Part shown: in pieces, positions 28,349-36,548 of the stretch
Layout of the letters: each line of letters begins with the position of its first letter
Numbering within the stretch: the stretch's first letter is position 1
From: Squalus acanthias
Taxonomy: Eukaryota
Assembly (NCBI GenBank): GCA_030390025.1
Contig: CM059431.1
Coordinates: 112,222,001 to 112,286,000, forward strand
Direction: 5' to 3'
DNA length: 64,000 nucleotides
The notes under the pieces: generated by a model
What the model saw: only the letters and a program-made list of their open reading frames with translations
The model's database searches: none
What the model was told of the DNA's origin: nothing
Made by a program: the position numbers and the translations under genes

Positions 28349-28914
28349 TCTGTTCTGCCTCCTATTTGAATAGCTTTATATTAAATTTGATTTAATTCCA
28401 CTTTGCTGCTTATTTTACCAGTGTGACATGTAGATATTGTAATATGCCATTTTATCAATCACACTGGCTTTTATATTCATCATTAATCACACATCAAAGT
28501 GGATATAAATTCCACTAACCTATGTTTCCCGTGAAAACAATATAGGGCTGTGGGGAAAAAAAAATGGCTCATAGCTAAATGGTGAGGTGACATGGGCTAA
28601 CCTGAATGTTGCAATGCATCATATTTTGAGAAAGGGATGTAGGTGGTATTTTTTCCTTTCAAATTATATTCAGACTCTGGTCCTAATTAATATAGACTCC
28701 CAACAAAGCAGAGCCAATGGAATGCGATTCTTTGCTTTTTTTTGGGTGTGAATTTTTGTGCTGGTTAATGTGAGGCATGCTGGGGAATGAAGCAGGTCTC
28801 ATTTTTATGTCTGCTGACAGCCAAGATGTAATGCAGAGTTCCCCCCGATACTGCCATAAGAATACCTTAGGTCACCAGGCCTGTGAGTGTAGCCCTTTTT
28901 AAGAACACCCCACG

Positions 28915-30984
28915 ATGGCGAGCTCATCATCGCCGGTGACGGGGCCGGCAAGGTCGTACGCGGGTGTGGCAGCCTTGGCCACGGCTAATCCCGCTGCTTC
29001 TGCTGCCCCGTCACCATTCCGCCTGATCACTAAGAAGCACGGGGTGAAGATCTACATGACCATCGAGGCCTGCGTCCAAGCCATGGCCGAGGTTGTCGGC
29101 CCCTCGGCCATCGTAGCGGCCTCGAAAATGTACGGAAAGGCTGTGTTCTTCCTGCGGTCAGAGCGGGCGGTGGCCCTGGCCGTAACAAAGGGGCTCACCG
29201 TGGGCGGGACCTTCCTGCCGGTGGATCCTCTCGAGGCCACCGCGCAGAGGATCCTGATCTCAAACGTCCCGCCCTTTGTTACTGGTGAGCTCCTCCTCCC
29301 CCACCTACGTCAACTGGGGGAGGTGAGGTCGGGGATCACGCCGATCCCGCTCGGCTGCAGGGACGCCAGCCTCCGGCACGTCTTCTCCTTCCGGCGCCAG
29401 CTTTTCATTCAGCTGGCGCGGGAGGAGGACACCGAGGGCGCGTTTGTTGTTTGCCACGAGGGGACCGCCTACCGCGTCTTTTGGACGTCGGACGGCGTGC
29501 GGTGCCACGCCTGTAAGGAGGTGGGGCACCTAAGAAAGAACTGCCCCGCCTCCAAGGCCGCCAAAACATCTGGGGCGGCCAAGGCTGGCGCCGCCGCCGC
29601 TCCTCCCCCTGATTCCGTCCGCGCGTCCACGACATCTGATGCGCGGTCGACGTCGGAGGTCAACGTCACCACGGCCTCCGGCGGGGGGGAGGGGGAGCGT
29701 CCGGCCAGAAAGAAGGCGCGGGGGAAAACCAAAAACATTTGGGCGGATCCCCTCGTGGAACAAGAGGACCTGCCGGAGCTCACGCCCGCGTTTCTCGCGG
29801 ACTTGGCGGCGGAGCTCCGGAGTGAGAGGGACCTCGTGCCCGAGCCTGTGACCGCAACCGCTGTGACGGAAAAATCAAGACCTGCGGTCGGGCTCGGGCC
29901 CGGGGGACCCAAGAAGCAACCCGAACGACAGGAGGGAGCGGAGGGGGAGGCCTCGGCAGACATGGAGGTCTCCCTGCCTCCGTGTCCCTCCGTACTTAAA
30001 AGGAGGTGCAGCTCCCTGGAGGAGGCGGAGGACCGCGAGGAACAGGGTCCCTCCTCGCAAGGGGAGTCGTCGGCCGTCGCGGGTGCTGCGCCACCCCCCA
30101 CCGTCACCACAGGTATTAGGCAGGAGTCGCCTGTCCCTCGGGAGGGTACAACAGATGAGTCTATCCAGCCTGTGCCTCCCGGGGATGGGGAAGAGACCCT
30201 GCTCGTGGGGGGGGGGGCCGCGGAACTACCCGCGACGGTAACCTCAGAAGAACCGTCACTTCTCGCCATGTCGAGCGCCCTGGGGACTGGGGTGGGCGAG
30301 GCCGTCGAGGCTGAGCCTGCCCAAAACAGTCGGGACATCCCCCAGGTGCTGCTCGACATGGTCGAGAATCTCGAGAACCTCAGCCAGGGTCCCCAGTCCG
30401 CTGGGTCGGAGGCTGGTGGCGTTGAAGGGGAAGGCCCCCTGACTCCGTCTCAGACGCTGGCGCCGGGGGTGTTGGGGGAACTGGGATTAGGTTTCTCCCC
30501 GGTTTCCCCGTATCCCCCGGTGCCTGGGGCGGAGGGGGACCCCGAACCGCTGCCGCTTCCTGACCCGGCGCCCCCGGAGGAGCCCAGGGAGAACTCCTCT
30601 GCCGCCGATCCTGGGGGTGGGATCGGGGCGGAGGCAGGGCCGGCCGATGATGACCCCCCGGAGGAGGACCGGGACCCAGCAGAGGGCACCGATGACGACA
30701 TGGACGCGGATACCCTCGTGCCCCTCTCCGAGTCCCCCCTCATCCCCGTTGTGGATCTCCGGGACTTTGTGGCCACGTGCTGGGGTCGCCGCGATAAAAT
30801 CCGGCTGGCCCTCGAAAGATGGTCGGATCTGGCGCTGCTCATCCTCTCCGTCCGCGCCGCCGTCAAAACCATGGGCACGGACGAGGGCGTGAGCCCGGCC
30901 GAGCTGCGTCGGATCCAAAAGTTCCTCGCTGTGCTGAAAAGGGAGTGGCGGTCGACTAGCGGCCATGCTTCCTCCTCCCGTTAG
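28915..30984 (+). CDS. Tx1 ORF1 protein, 689 aa
   Basis: Open frame with IVAASKMYGKAVFFL, ILISNVPPF, LRHVFSFRRQ and CHACKEVGHLRKNCP (CX2CX4HX4C), characteristic of Tx1 ORF1; long low-complexity C-terminal half. Confidence 0.88.
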   Translation: MASSSSPVTGPARSYAGVAALATANPAASAAPSPFRLITKKHGVKIYMTIEACVQAMAEVVGPSAIVAASKMYGKAVFFLRSERAVALAVTKGLTVGGTFLPVDPLEATAQRILISNVPPFVTGELLLPHLRQLGEVRSGITPIPLGCRDASLRHVFSFRRQLFIQLAREEDTEGAFVVCHEGTAYRVFWTSDGVRCHACKEVGHLRKNCPASKAAKTSGAAKAGAAAAPPPDSVRASTTSDARSTSEVNVTTASGGGEGERPARKKARGKTKNIWADPLVEQEDLPELTPAFLADLAAELRSERDLVPEPVTATAVTEKSRPAVGLGPGGPKKQPERQEGAEGEASADMEVSLPPCPSVLKRRCSSLEEAEDREEQGPSSQGESSAVAGAAPPPTVTTGIRQESPVPREGTTDESIQPVPPGDGEETLLVGGGAAELPATVTSEEPSLLAMSSALGTGVGEAVEAEPAQNSRDIPQVLLDMVENLENLSQGPQSAGSEAGGVEGEGPLTPSQTLAPGVLGELGLGFSPVSPYPPVPGAEGDPEPLPLPDPAPPEEPRENSSAADPGGGIGAEAGPADDDPPEEDRDPAEGTDDDMDADTLVPLSESPLIPVVDLRDFVATCWGRRDKIRLALERWSDLALLILSVRAAVKTMGTDEGVSPAELRRIQKFLAVLKREWRSTSGHASSSR

Positions 30985-31015
30985 GTTTAAGTAGAGGTTG
31001 CACAATGCTCTTGTC

Positions 31016-34850: not shown

Positions 34851-34904
34851 TTTGATGTGTTTTAAAATTTAATTTAAGTTCCTTTGCAGTTCATTTCTTT
34901 GTCC

Positions 34905-35203
34905 GGGAGAGCGGGAGGCTCCGCGGATGGAGAAGAGTGTCAACCAGAGTCTGCTGGATCTGCACAAACTCTCCACTGGGAGCGCCGACCCTCATCTGTG
35001 TGAATTCCTGGAGACCCACAATTTCTGGATGAACAAGTGAAGACGATCAAGGAGCTTGGAGATCACATCAGCAACTTGTAGAGACTGAGTTCCCTGCCTT
35101 GTAGGCAATGATGGCTTGTGACTTGTACAAAGAGCTGAGACTTGAGCTCTGTAATGTCATTTACTGTAAATAAAATGTTGAAATTTTAAAATAAAAAAGA
35201 AAG
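34905..35203 (+). pseudogene. Processed ferritin heavy/middle-chain 3' fragment with 3' UTR, AATAAA and poly(A)
   Basis: From 34927: [31 protein letters not shown] (frameshift) [18 protein letters not shown], aligning by eye to human FTH1 [56 protein letters not shown] 35169-35174; A-tract 35188-35203. Confidence 0.93.
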
Positions 35204-36548
35204 ATTGCTTCCCCAGGTAAGGAAGTCAAGAGAAAAAAAAACATTGGGTTGATGTAATGCAGGTGGGAGTGATTGAGAAAGGGTAAAGAAAGACTGCAGT
35301 AAGTATGTACCATGATATAATTACTGCCCAGGATAGTATATAACTACTGCCAGCATGGCCTGCCTATTCTGTTTTAATGACCTGTGGTAATGCTTGTAGA
35401 AGCTCATAATGAGGGAGCTCAATCACAATTTTCTATTAGAAATTCCAGCTGCTTGTGTTTAGACTCTGTGGAACTTGACCTTTAATACTTTTCTGAGCAG
35501 ACAAAAGTAGTTTCAGAAATATGCTCCAGTCAAATCACCAAAGCATTAAATGCTGCAACAAGAAGACATTGGGGATTCCAGCAAGAGGAAGCGGGGATTT
35601 ATTTTGGGTTTCTAACATTCAGAAATCCATCACCTATGTTTGAGAGTCTCCAAACTAAGTTCATGAGAAATCCACACAGGTAGTGTCTCTGTTTGCTGGT
35701 AATGCAGGGCACATTTACCTCCCTGTAGGGACACGTCATACTTAAGCTGTATTCCACCATGACCCAAGAACGGCTTTTATGTCCTTTGTAGCACTTGTAT
35801 AAAGAAAGTTCCATTAGCAGTGCATTTGATTTTTTTTTTCTGATCTCTAATCTTTTCTAAAGCTCAGGATATGCAGGAATATAGACGACAACAGGCAGCA
35901 AATTGGAGATAGCTGTGCGGGCGCCAGCACTGGTAGGGACAGATTGTGGGTGTATTAAGTATTGTTGTTTGTCTAGTTTTGGTTTAGTGGCTGTTGCTTT
36001 AAATTTAGTTTACAGAAGGTGACAATTTCAGGTAAAATTCTTGTACCAAGCTTAAATTGATAAAATGTTGCAAGGCTTTGTTGAGTTTGTCTCTATAGTT
36101 ACTAGTTCGAGAGAGCAATCAAGTGACATACAGATACTGTAATATGCCATTTTATCAATCACAGTGACTTTTATACTCCGCTTAAAGCTATGTGATTGGT
36201 TCAATTTGTGTATGACTGACAGTTCTTTTTGAATTTGACTGTTCAGTCATCCAAAATCTACAAAATCCCAGTGACTGCGGTGGTAAGAAATATTTAGAGA
36301 GAATACTGATTCTATGAGAGTGTTCTAAGAAAAAAAAGTCCTGAGCATTAGATTATACTGTACTATAAATTATGTATCAGTTCATTATTTGCTTGTTCAA
36401 CTTTTGTTAAATAAATTTGCTTAATAATTGAAACTTAAAGCATCACCACATCAGACCTGGTTTTATTATTCACTGAAGACTGGAGAGGCATCCTATGGGG
36501 ACGTAGTATAATTCCAATAGCTAAAAGCAATTAATAAAAAGATTGAAA

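What the first reader, a model, noticed from the sequence alone, without database searches (positions are those of the whole stretch)
28825..35262. Tx1 LINE carrying a spliced ferritin mRNA 3' end inside one target-site duplication
Seen in sequence: ORF2 stops at 34850, followed by about 55 nt of T-rich sequence with no poly(A). A ferritin H/M-chain fragment follows ([44 protein letters not shown]), then a 3' UTR, AATAAA (35169) and an A-tract. The 12-mer GATGTAATGCAG flanks the whole unit, and the left flank is not ferritin. Established knowledge: human FTH1 has an intron between DPH and LC, which is contiguous here; L1-group elements perform 3' transduction; many Tx1 families target specific multicopy sequences. 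Inference: LINE and ferritin moved as one RNA. The source may sit in a ferritin retrocopy, the family may target ferritin sequences, or it may have permanently adopted the ferritin 3' end as its polyadenylation module. The last two would make a mobile system that amplifies ferritin sequence. I do not know of a description of this, but could not search.
Basis: partly seen in the sequence, partly recalled or inferred. Interest (0 to 1): 0.88.

Follow-up and report, generated by a model that had tools for sequence, protein, structure and literature searches.

The report
LINE family with ferritin-derived tail
A jumping gene of the Tx1 type in this vertebrate genome has replaced its own end with the spliced last exons and poly(A) signal of a ferritin gene, and has since scattered over a hundred copies of that ferritin piece around the chromosomes.

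Summary
Window 28837-35250 is one full-length Tx1-like LINE between two copies of GATGTAATGCAG (28825-36, 35251-62). Its ORF2 stop is followed by 54 AT-rich bases, then intron-less ferritin exon 3 + exon 4 + 3'UTR with AATAAA. This is not a one-off. The same 44-base LINE/ferritin junction occurs at 115 places in the genome (control 0). A tail-internal deletion junction occurs at 134 places (control 0). Copies are 5'-truncated at many points and have different target-site duplications in unrelated DNA. All 56 tails tested form one clade. Intron-containing ferritin genes (a tandem array on contig C27) have an intron exactly at DPH|LC. Ferritin targeting and single transduction are rejected.

New here:
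- Rarer long-tail forms exist (LINE + 316-nt linker + exons 2-4). In these, ferritin starts at the first base of exon 2, which points to capture by read-through plus splicing.
- The window copy also carries a 36-nt 3' tag identical to a sequence that, apart from the window and one sister copy on C12, occurs only in the C27 ferritin array.

How the short tail arose, and whether it does more than supply a poly(A) site, remain inferred. No RNA evidence was obtained.

The parts
28825..28836 (+). left target-site duplication GATGTAATGCAG
   Evidence: only two copies in the 64 kb window, 0.03 expected
28837..28914 (+). LINE 5' UTR. The first 46 nt are a fast-diverging 5' end, not a transduction.
   Evidence: the 39 other places listed match only from 28883 on; the 46-mer is unique at <=3 mismatches. 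L023 and L015 carry a related but diverged stretch upstream of 28883.
28915..30984 (+). ORF1, 689 aa, open; zinc knuckle at aa 196-211, long acidic/Pro-rich middle
   Evidence: zf-CCHC scores 18.4 bits, below the 20.8 cut-off.
30998..34850 (+). ORF2, broken in this copy into pieces 30998-32278 (endonuclease), 32452-32826 and 32872-33408 (RT), ..-34850 (C-terminal zinc-binding part); stop TAA 34848-34850
34851..34904 (+). remnant of the LINE's own AT-rich 3' UTR, with no A-tail. Tail-less relatives continue differently after ..ATTTGTTT.
34905..34924 (+). junction linker. In intact copies it reads GGGAGAGCGGGAGGCTCCGCTC, with a 6-bp inverted repeat GAGCGG/CCGCTC. Its origin cannot be assigned. 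A private 22-nt deletion follows 34924.
34925..34995 (+). ferritin exon 3-derived sequence, ending at ..GACCCTCAT (DPH)
   Evidence: gene exon 3 ends at the same base and is followed by gtaagt
34996..35086 (+). ferritin exon 4 coding-derived sequence. Contains the family-wide AAG>TAG change at 35079-35081 and a private 2-nt insertion near 35020-35022.
35087..35199 (+). ferritin 3'UTR-derived sequence after a family-wide 125-nt deletion. AATAAA at 35169-35174, second AATAAA at 35190-35195, A-rich family end.
   Evidence: copies end at 35195-35205 (two stop earlier, at 35176 and 35183), and gene colinearity stops at the same cleavage region
35200..35241 (+). 3' tag of 36 nt (35200-35235) shared only with one sister copy (L002, contig C12) and 37 sites in the C27 ferritin array; then an A-run to 35241
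   Evidence: 39 places in the genome; 36/36 identity to L050 and L065; the context in C27 is not a ferritin 3'UTR.
35242..35250 (+). 9 bases CATTGGGTT between the A-run and the right duplication, unexplained
35251..35262 (+). right target-site duplication GATGTAATGCAG

Best explanation
**What it is (shown).** Window 28837-35250 is a dead, full-length copy of a Tx1-clade LINE family. In place of the end seen in its tail-less relatives, the family's 3' terminus is a ~300-nt piece of a spliced host ferritin mRNA: most of exon 3, exon 4 with an internal 125-nt deletion, the end of the 3'UTR, AATAAA and the ferritin cleavage site. The tail is a fixed family trait that goes back to one capture. Every retrotransposition copies it, so the family has spread at least 115-134 partial ferritin sequences. 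These include 'ferritin-only' pieces, which are ordinary 5'-truncated insertions. Insertion is not site-specific. The duplications mostly start with AA and the copies end in A-tails, as in L1-type poly(A)-primed reverse transcription.

**How it works (inferred).** The LINE transcript reads past its own weak AT-rich 3' UTR. It is cleaved and polyadenylated at the ferritin signal. The poly(A) end then primes target-primed reverse transcription.

**How it arose (inferred).** A LINE of this lineage sat in or next to a ferritin gene. Its read-through transcript was spliced into ferritin exons and retrotransposed. The long form (LINE + 316-nt linker + exons 2-4) preserves this step. The short, successful form arose either by a second splice or template switch near the start of exon 3, or by internal deletion of a long form.

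**This copy.** Its direct progenitor probably lay in the C27 ferritin gene array, from which it took a further 36-nt 3' tag.
For: **Family-wide junction**
- The 44-nt LINE/ferritin junction is at 115 places, with 0 for the reversed-pattern control.
- The tail-internal deletion junction is at 134 places, control 0.
- 30 of 30 loci fetched with the junction query carry the ORF2 end plus tail. Of the tail-bearing rows for loci L002-L066, 49 have the LINE 3'UTR directly upstream and 5 do not.

**Independent insertions**
- 5' ends lie at 33510, 33825, 34211, 34292, 34342, 34433 and elsewhere. The script found exact duplications of 8 nt or more in 10 of 36 loci.
- Of 20 further tail places, 19 are truncated inside the tail at positions 48-166, and 12 of the 20 have exact duplications.

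**Spliced host origin**
- Genes L067 and L090 have ..GACCCTCAT|gtaagt .. cag|TTGTGTGAC.
- L090 has the same type of 3'UTR as the tail, and its colinearity ends at the family's end.

**Single origin**
- All tails share the 662|788 deletion.
- 56 of 56 tails form one clade with SH-aLRT 99. They lie nested with intron-less ferritin copies and apart from three C27 genes.

**Tail-less relatives** end ..ATTTGTTT + A-rich sequence.

**Long form**
- L037 consists of an ORF2 end 91% identical to the window over 1103 nt, the tail-less type of 3'UTR, a 316-nt linker, and ferritin starting at the first base of exon 2.
- The linker is unlike intron 1 of gene L092.
- Deleted long forms occur at four more places.

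**Tx1 affinity:**

**3' tag:**
Against: - No RNA evidence. No run on record as RNA holds the stretch, and no listed contig bridges the junction.
- That the ferritin AATAAA is the signal actually used is inferred from where copies end.
- The 26 nt at the short-form junction cannot be assigned. They match exon 3 bases 6-14 (AGAGCGGGA), and they also match the end of the long-form linker (GGGAGAGC). Splicing, template switching and deletion are therefore not separated.
- No source locus (LINE + flank + intron + ferritin exon) was found.
- The exact parent gene was not found. The sampled C27 genes are 81-88% identical in exon 4 + UTR, against 91-97% among the intron-less copies.
- The tail diverges less between copies than the adjacent ORF2: 0.036 against 0.066, or 0.028 against 0.049 without CpG sites, from 11 copies giving 55 non-independent pairs. 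This could mean selection, later spread of the tail by recombination, or neither.
- The 36-nt tag lies on the + strand in C27, while the ferritin genes and LINE tails listed in that part of the array are on the - strand. No progenitor next to a tag site is in the assembly.
Confidence: 0.85

Rival explanations
1. One-off event. A LINE landed in or beside a ferritin retrocopy, or made a single 3' transduction. The unit in the window is an isolated chimera.
For: The window copy alone looks like this: a LINE plus an intron-less ferritin piece inside one duplication. Some copies are multiplied by segmental duplication, for example the 13.7-kb repeats on C27.
Against: The junction is at 115 places and the tail at 134, on many contigs. 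Truncation points and duplications differ between copies.
Confidence: 0.02
2. The family targets ferritin sequences, as many Tx1 families target multicopy sequences. The ferritin piece would then be target DNA rather than cargo.
For: Many tail copies lie in the C27 ferritin array. The window's 36-nt tag comes from there.
Against: - No ferritin lies 5' of the element in the three full-length 5' junctions seen: the window, L023 and L015.
- Duplications flank LINE + tail and are unrelated to ferritin.
- The tail is spliced and carries the same deletion everywhere.
- The C27 copies are largely one unit repeated in tandem.
Confidence: 0.02
3. The short tail was made by reverse-transcriptase template switching rather than by splicing of a read-through transcript. 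Reverse transcription would begin on a ferritin RNA (or on a long-tail LINE RNA), stop near the start of exon 3, and jump to the 3' UTR of a LINE RNA.
For: - There is no A-tract between the LINE and ferritin parts.
- The junction carries a short inverted repeat.
- Breakpoints recur. Simple intron-less copies start at the first base of exon 3 (L042, with duplication AAAACATC). L039 starts at position 1588, which is also the deletion end in the deleted long forms.
- Ferritin RNA is copied often: at least 18 other intron-less copies at 91-97% identity.
- Chimeric retrocopies made by template jumps are described (PMC2104539, seen as title and start of abstract in the listing).
Against: In the long form, the junction is exact at the exon 2 acceptor, which argues for splicing there. 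A jump into the interior of the acceptor RNA is not the usual pattern, as far as I recall. Nothing here separates the two routes for the short form.
Confidence: 0.35
4. The ferritin tail is kept because it benefits the element beyond polyadenylation. Examples would be ferritin-like RNA stability or handling, or small-RNA cross-talk with the ferritin gene array, as proposed for gene fragments captured by Drosophila telomeric LINEs.
For: - The tail is less diverged between copies than the neighbouring ORF2, also without CpG sites.
- The short-tail form far outnumbers the long forms: 115-134 places against about 5.
- A precedent of capture with small-RNA effects exists (PMC13534243, passages read).
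Against: - There are no expression or small-RNA data.
- The difference in divergence is modest and comes from 11 related copies.
- Rfam finds nothing, and the fold z-score is only -2.2.
- The ferritin frame carries a stop and a deletion, so no ferritin function is expected.
Confidence: 0.12

Closest known systems
L1-type 3' transduction (read-through past a weak LINE poly(A) signal; Pickeral et al. 2000, as cited in PMC13534243, passages read)
   Same: Non-LINE sequence sits between the LINE body and the A-tail inside one target-site duplication. The window's 36-nt tag (35200-35235) is a plain example.
   Different: The ferritin part is spliced, not colinear with a genomic flank. No internal A-tract marks the old LINE end. 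It is fixed in at least 115 copies rather than marking one progenitor's offspring.
Gene capture by Drosophila telomeric LINEs (nxf2 in TART; piwi and aubergine fragments; PMC13534243, passages read)
   Same: A LINE family carries a fragment of a host gene at a fixed place in all its copies. The fragment size and identity to the host gene are similar: 140-235 bp at 76-95% there, ~300 nt at about 93-95% here.
   Different: - Here the host is a vertebrate, the LINE is of the Tx1 clade, and insertion is dispersed.
- The captured piece forms the very 3' end with the poly(A) signal.
- The captured gene is ferritin, not a silencing gene.
- No small-RNA data are available.
SVA subfamily with MAST2 exon acquired by splicing (PMC6139936, title and start of abstract seen in the listing; details recalled)
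   Same: A host exon joined to a retroelement RNA by splicing and then amplified as a subfamily. The long-tail form here starts at the first base of ferritin exon 2.
   Different: SVA is non-autonomous and its captured exon sits at the 5' end. Here an autonomous LINE captured 3' exons and the poly(A) site.
Chimeric retrocopies by template switching of LINE reverse transcriptase (PMC2104539 and bioRxiv 10.1101/2025.02.02.635956; abstract, outline and section 34 of the latter read)
   Same: Two RNAs are fused head to tail with no A-tract between them, inside one duplication.
   Different: Those are mostly single insertions, with the foreign RNA at the 5' side of a truncated LINE. Here a whole LINE lies 5' of the foreign piece and the chimera became a propagating family.
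Tx1 of Xenopus laevis (YTX2_XENLA, P0138)
   Same: ORF2 N-terminal 426 aa: 45% identity over 97% of the query, 368 bits. The domain order is endonuclease, RT, C-terminal zinc-binding part.
   Different: Tx1 and many of its relatives insert at specific repeated targets (recalled). This family's duplications are in unrelated, mostly AA-starting sites.

Membership tests
Tx1 clade of L1-group LINEs | ORF2 with apurinic-type endonuclease, reverse transcriptase and a C-terminal zinc-binding region | tested here: met
   PF03372 E 2.4e-11; PF00078 E 1.7e-18 and 1.5e-13; PF13966 at 25.4 bits, just under its 27.5 cut-off
Tx1 clade of L1-group LINEs | RT/ORF2 groups with Tx1 rather than with L1 proper | tested here: inconclusive
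   Similarity only. 45% identity and 368 bits to YTX2_XENLA, against 90 bits to human L1 ORF2p. No phylogeny with labelled clade references was possible.
Tx1 clade of L1-group LINEs | ORF1 with RNA-binding domain plus CCHC knuckle (recalled as typical) | tested here: inconclusive
   zf-CCHC at 18.4 bits, below the 20.8 cut-off; no other Pfam match
Tx1 clade of L1-group LINEs | insertion into one specific repeated target (typical of many members, not defining; recalled) | tested here: not met
   duplications differ between copies and lie in unrelated DNA
simple L1-type 3' transduction | the extra sequence is colinear with the genomic flank of one source copy and follows the LINE's own A-tail | tested here: not met
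   The ferritin part lacks intron 3 and there is no A-tract at the junction. The feature is met only for the 36-nt tag at 35200-35235.
host-gene capture by a LINE family | the same host fragment with the same boundaries in the family's copies, nested in the host gene's tree | tested here: met
processed ferritin pseudogene | intron-less copy with an A-tail whose own ends are flanked by the duplication | tested here: not met
   The piece is intron-less and A-tailed, but the duplication encloses LINE + ferritin. Tail-only copies carry LINE-specific linker bases.
ferritin (Pfam PF00210) | match to the ferritin profile over a whole four-helix domain | tested here: not met
   Tails match profile positions 79-141 only, at 37-46 bits, and contain a stop. 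The window's own 39-aa piece gave no hit.

The most novel reading that the evidence does not exclude
The ferritin tail is not a passive passenger. On this reading, the element was selected to end in ferritin exons because the tail gives its RNA ferritin-like handling (3' end formation, stability or germline expression). Alternatively, tail-derived small RNAs cross-react with the 44-plus-copy ferritin gene array. Element and gene array would then influence each other's evolution, as proposed for gene fragments captured by Drosophila telomeric LINEs.
Probability: 0.1. Interest if true: 0.8.

Novelty: new variant of a known kind. Interest (0 to 1): 0.6.

Why it matters
LINE 3' ends are usually seen as family-specific and slowly evolving, and transduced host sequence as a dead-end tag. 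Here one genome holds three stages together:
- tail-less relatives;
- rare long-tail chimeras with ferritin exons 2-4;
- a successful short-tail family.

That makes the replacement of a LINE's 3' terminus by host exons directly traceable.

It also shows a vertebrate LINE acting as a vehicle that multiplies a host coding fragment more than a hundred times. This matters for gene annotation, because false ferritin hits will appear. It also matters for dating retrocopies and for ideas on how retroelements acquire new regulatory ends.

Tried and rejected
- **RNA evidence.** No RNA holder is listed. Contigs of four coded runs were laid. No listed piece bridges 34865-34926. Loose ends at 34918 in X10 and X11 show the LINE-type linker, but the runs' relation to this species is unknown.
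- **Earlier scan notes.** Nothing was found.
- **Rfam on 28700-35400.** No match at E <= 0.1.
- **RNA fold of a whole intact tail.** z = -2.2; not pursued.
- **5' 46 nt as a 5' transduction.** Rejected, because it is a diverged 5' UTR start.
- **36-nt tag as the ferritin gene's downstream flank.** Rejected. Gene L090 continues GGACTGG.. after its cleavage site, and the tag's C27 context is not a 3'UTR.
- **'Ferritin-only' units as a separate SINE-like element.** Rejected, because their starts are scattered through the tail. Three of the five first seen do start at the same base.
- **Long-form linker as intron 1.** Not supported for the one gene sampled. A first fetch missed the exon.
- **Naming the clade from database names.** The first search gave no Tx1 name; the search among longer proteins did.
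- **Literature.** No paper on a ferritin-tailed LINE turned up. Searches failed on term syntax.

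
Full report
**1. The observation**

The window holds one element between two copies of GATGTAATGCAG, at 28825-28836 and 35251-35262. 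These are the only two copies in 64 kb; 0.03 were expected.

Inside lie:
- a 78-nt 5' UTR;
- ORF1 (28915-30984, 689 aa, open);
- an ORF2 broken into at least four frames that ends with TAA at 34848-34850.

Pfam finds the endonuclease, two halves of RVT_1 and, just under its cut-off, zf-RVT.

After the stop come 54 AT-rich bases without an A-tract. All of this is as described. No other copy of the element lies in the window.

**2. It is a family trait, not a single event**

The genome that holds the window is 3.7 Gb in 3882 contigs; the window is C7:112222001-112286000.

- Searching it with 34700-35262 gave 45 matches from 40 scored candidates of 1724.
- 30 of 30 fetched loci carry the ORF2 end, the AT-rich stretch and the ferritin part in the same arrangement.
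- A 44-base pattern across the LINE/ferritin junction matches 115 places at up to 3 mismatches. The reversed control matches none.
- A 44-base pattern across a deletion inside the tail matches 134 places, control 0.
- Copies begin at many different points: 33510, 33825, 34211, 34292, 34342, 34433, 34506 and others. They end at 35195-35205, apart from two that stop at 35176 and 35183.
- My script found exact flanking duplications of 8 nt or more in 10 of 36 loci. Most begin with AA.
- I sampled 20 more tail places that were absent from the junction list. Of these, 19 are truncated inside the tail at scattered positions (48 to 166 of the tail), 12 of the 20 have exact duplications, and one is a rearranged LINE-attached copy.

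Five 'ferritin-only' units were seen first (L031-L035). Three of them still start with linker bases that ferritin genes lack. I therefore read all five as ordinary 5'-truncated insertions of the LINE, not independent ferritin retrocopies.

**3. The tail is spliced ferritin mRNA**

A Pfam ferritin search of the genome showed a large tandem array on contig C27 (5.49-6.26 Mb). 44 of the 150 listed matches are exon 2-type matches there.

Two genes read in full detail show the expected structure:
- L067 has ..GACATCAAG|gt, cag|AAACCAGAGCGGG..GACCCTCAT|gtaagt, and cag|TTGTGTGAC...
- L090 shows the same for exons 3 and 4, with a 356-nt intron 3. Its 3'UTR is of the same type as the tail. It ends AATAAACTGTTCAATATT, followed by unrelated DNA.

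The tail runs through DPH|LC without the intron and stops at the same cleavage region.

Compared with an intron-less ferritin copy used as an mRNA stand-in (L037), every tail row that spans the site lacks the same 125 nt (662|788). This removes the C-terminal codons, the stop and the first part of the 3'UTR. All but three of the listed tail places have TAG where the genes have AAG.

Clear ferritin identity (93-95%) starts at GGCGATGCAGAG. The 26 bases before it are discussed in section 7.

**4. One origin**

I built a tree on 280 aligned columns from 56 tails, 7 intron-less ferritin copies and 4 genes. Before building it I dropped 9 rows that repeated a place or merged two places, 7 identical tandem copies, and rows with fewer than 150 filled columns.

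All 56 tails fall in one clade (SH-aLRT 99). That clade lies in a polytomy with the intron-less copies and apart from three C27 genes (support 85).

Two tail variants exist. ..ATCACC.. matches the genes, and ..ATCAGC.. is the window's variant.

**5. Relatives without the tail, and long-tail forms**

Several loci hold related LINE copies at 77-88% identity to the window. Their 3' UTR continues ..ACAGTTGATTTGTTT(AAYYACCCC..CAGAAAGAGT..) into an A-tail with its own duplication, and has no ferritin. Contig loose ends at 34826 in three of the four runs laid (X5, X10, X11) show this type.

L037 (contig C2889) turned out to be more than a 'processed ferritin copy'. Upstream of its ferritin part lies:
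- the end of a LINE ORF2 that is 91% identical to the window over 1103 nt;
- the tail-less type of 3' UTR;
- a 316-nt purine-rich linker ending ..ATATACAG.

After the linker, ferritin starts at the first base of exon 2. It runs through exons 3 and 4 and the complete 3'UTR without introns. The linker is unlike the end of intron 1 in the one gene sampled (L092..tctctccatag|TCCTTCTAC..).

A version with a 241-nt deletion (second half of the linker plus the first 88 nt of exon 2) is present in L015. By matching coordinates it is also at C14:81.8 Mb and C2997:1.10 Mb, and L041 is similar.

The genome therefore holds tail-less relatives, about five long-tail copies and 115-134 short-tail copies.

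At least 18 further intron-less ferritin copies (91-97% identity) lack the 125-nt deletion and are truncated at scattered points. None that I read reaches exon 1. I cannot tell whether they are trans-copied ferritin mRNAs or truncated long-tail LINE copies.

**6. How it most likely works**

Shown:
- The family's copies end where ferritin mRNA is cleaved.
- They carry A-tails.
- They sit in mostly AA-starting duplications at unrelated sites.

Inferred: the LINE transcript is polyadenylated at the ferritin signal, and the poly(A) end primes reverse transcription at a nicked T-rich site, as in L1. This would also explain why an mRNA 3' end could replace the LINE's own end.

The tail differs less between copies than the adjoining ORF2. 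Mean pairwise distance is 0.036 against 0.066, or 0.028 against 0.049 without CpG sites. The AT-rich UTR remnant is at 0.109. These figures come from 11 copies and 55 non-independent pairs. This is compatible with constraint on the tail in master copies or with later spread of the tail, but it is weak evidence.

**7. How it arose**

The long form's junction at the first base of exon 2, next to sequence that is neither exon 1 nor the sampled intron 1, argues for the following route. A LINE upstream of exon 2 was read through. Its flank was spliced to exon 2, and the RNA was retrotransposed.

For the short form the junction reads ..CATTTGTTT GTCCGGGAGAGCGGGAGGCTCCGCTC GGCGATG... It contains AGAGCGGGA, which equals bases 6-14 of exon 3 in genes L059 and L067. 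It also contains GGGAGAGC, as at the end of the long linker, and a 6-bp inverted repeat GAGCGG/CCGCTC.

Three routes remain open:
- a second splice into exon 3;
- a template switch near the start of exon 3;
- an internal deletion of a long form.

Recurrent break points hint at preferred stops of the reverse transcriptase. L042 starts at the first base of exon 3 with its own duplication. L039 starts at the same base at which the deleted long forms resume.

**8. This copy**

Three points are specific to the window copy.
- **Lesions.** It has a private 22-nt deletion after 34924 and a 2-nt insertion near 35020-35022.
- **3' tag.** Beyond the family end it carries 36 nt (35200-35235). With up to 3 mismatches, the first 33 of them occur at 39 places: here, in the sister copy L002 on C12, and at 37 sites in the C27 array, all on the + strand. 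Identity to L050 and L065 is 36/36. In C27 the stretch sits in a different context (..CTGCCCAAAGATTGCTTCCCCAG|GTAAGG..), not after a ferritin 3'UTR. I read this as a plain 3' transduction from a progenitor that lay in the array. No such progenitor is in the assembly.
- **Unexplained bases.** Nine bases (35242-35250) before the right duplication are unexplained.

**9. Clade**

The ORF2 N-terminal 426 aa match Xenopus Tx1 ORF2 at 45% identity over 97% of the query (368 bits). They match turtle LINE proteins at 41-50%, and shark and skate proteins at 68%. Human L1 ORF2p scores only 90 bits.

This supports Tx1 affinity by similarity. No labelled phylogeny was made. Unlike many Tx1 families (recalled), this one is not site-specific.

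**10. What is known**

- Gene capture by LINEs is described for Drosophila telomeric elements: nxf2, piwi and aubergine fragments of 140-235 bp at 76-95% identity. An anti-silencing role through small RNAs is proposed (PMC13534243, passages read).
- Exon capture by splicing is described for SVA/MAST2 (PMC6139936, listing only).
- Template-jump chimeras are described in PMC2104539 (listing). L1 chimeras at the 5' side are described in bioRxiv 10.1101/2025.02.02.635956 (abstract, outline and section 34 read).
- My searches found no report of a LINE family ending in ferritin exons. Subscription journals and repeat databases were not searchable.

I therefore rate this a new variant of a known kind.

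**11. Verdict**

- The mechanism of propagation is well grounded.
- The origin of the short tail, and any function of the tail beyond ending the transcript, remain inferred.

Noticed in passing
G000 contig C27:5.49-6.26 Mb (loci L048, L059, L067, L068, L090, L092): A very large tandem array of intron-containing ferritin genes. 44 of the 150 best Pfam matches are exon 2 hits here, spaced 5-7 kb apart, on the minus strand up to 6.11 Mb and on the plus strand from 6.18 Mb. There are at least two 3'UTR types, and a 13.7-kb unit holding a LINE tail is repeated many times.
   Followed up: partly
L017:1412-2340, L021:1261-2812, L024:1264-2045: A tailed copy lies head to tail with a tail-less copy. 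Both have the same 5' truncation point and share the same flanking duplication. Their ORF2 parts are mostly 93-100% identical per 30-column block, though tail-less copies are otherwise 77-88% identical to the tailed window copy. This looks like a new tailed cDNA resolved by homology on an older copy (a long duplication), or a local duplication followed by conversion.
   Followed up: partly
L042 (C7:104.61 Mb), L044 (C28:18.72 Mb), L043 (C5:23.16 Mb), L039 (C5:15.33 Mb): Intron-less ferritin copies start at or within two bases of the first base of exon 3 (L042 and L044). L043 has a pyrimidine tract and AG in front of a fused exon 3 + exon 4. L039 starts at the same base at which the deleted long-tail forms resume. 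The recurrent ends are unexplained.
   Followed up: partly
L002:2210-3560; L023:2098-3507; C7:37.484-37.490 Mb; C19:0.840-0.847 Mb: LINE copies of this family are often found within a few kb of each other or tail to head. In L023 a new 5' end lies 90 nt after the previous A-tail. There are three tails within 5 kb on C7 and three within 6 kb on C19. It was not determined whether this is nested insertion, local duplication or a preference.
   Followed up: no
L067:2587-2658 (+ strand): A 72-nt piece of the tail-type ferritin 3'UTR with AATAAA and an A-run lies in opposite orientation between two ferritin genes of the array. It is probably an extremely truncated insertion of the family.
   Followed up: no
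window 35242-35250: Nine bases CATTGGGTT between the A-run and the right target-site duplication match nothing in the left flank or in the sister copy L002.
   Followed up: no
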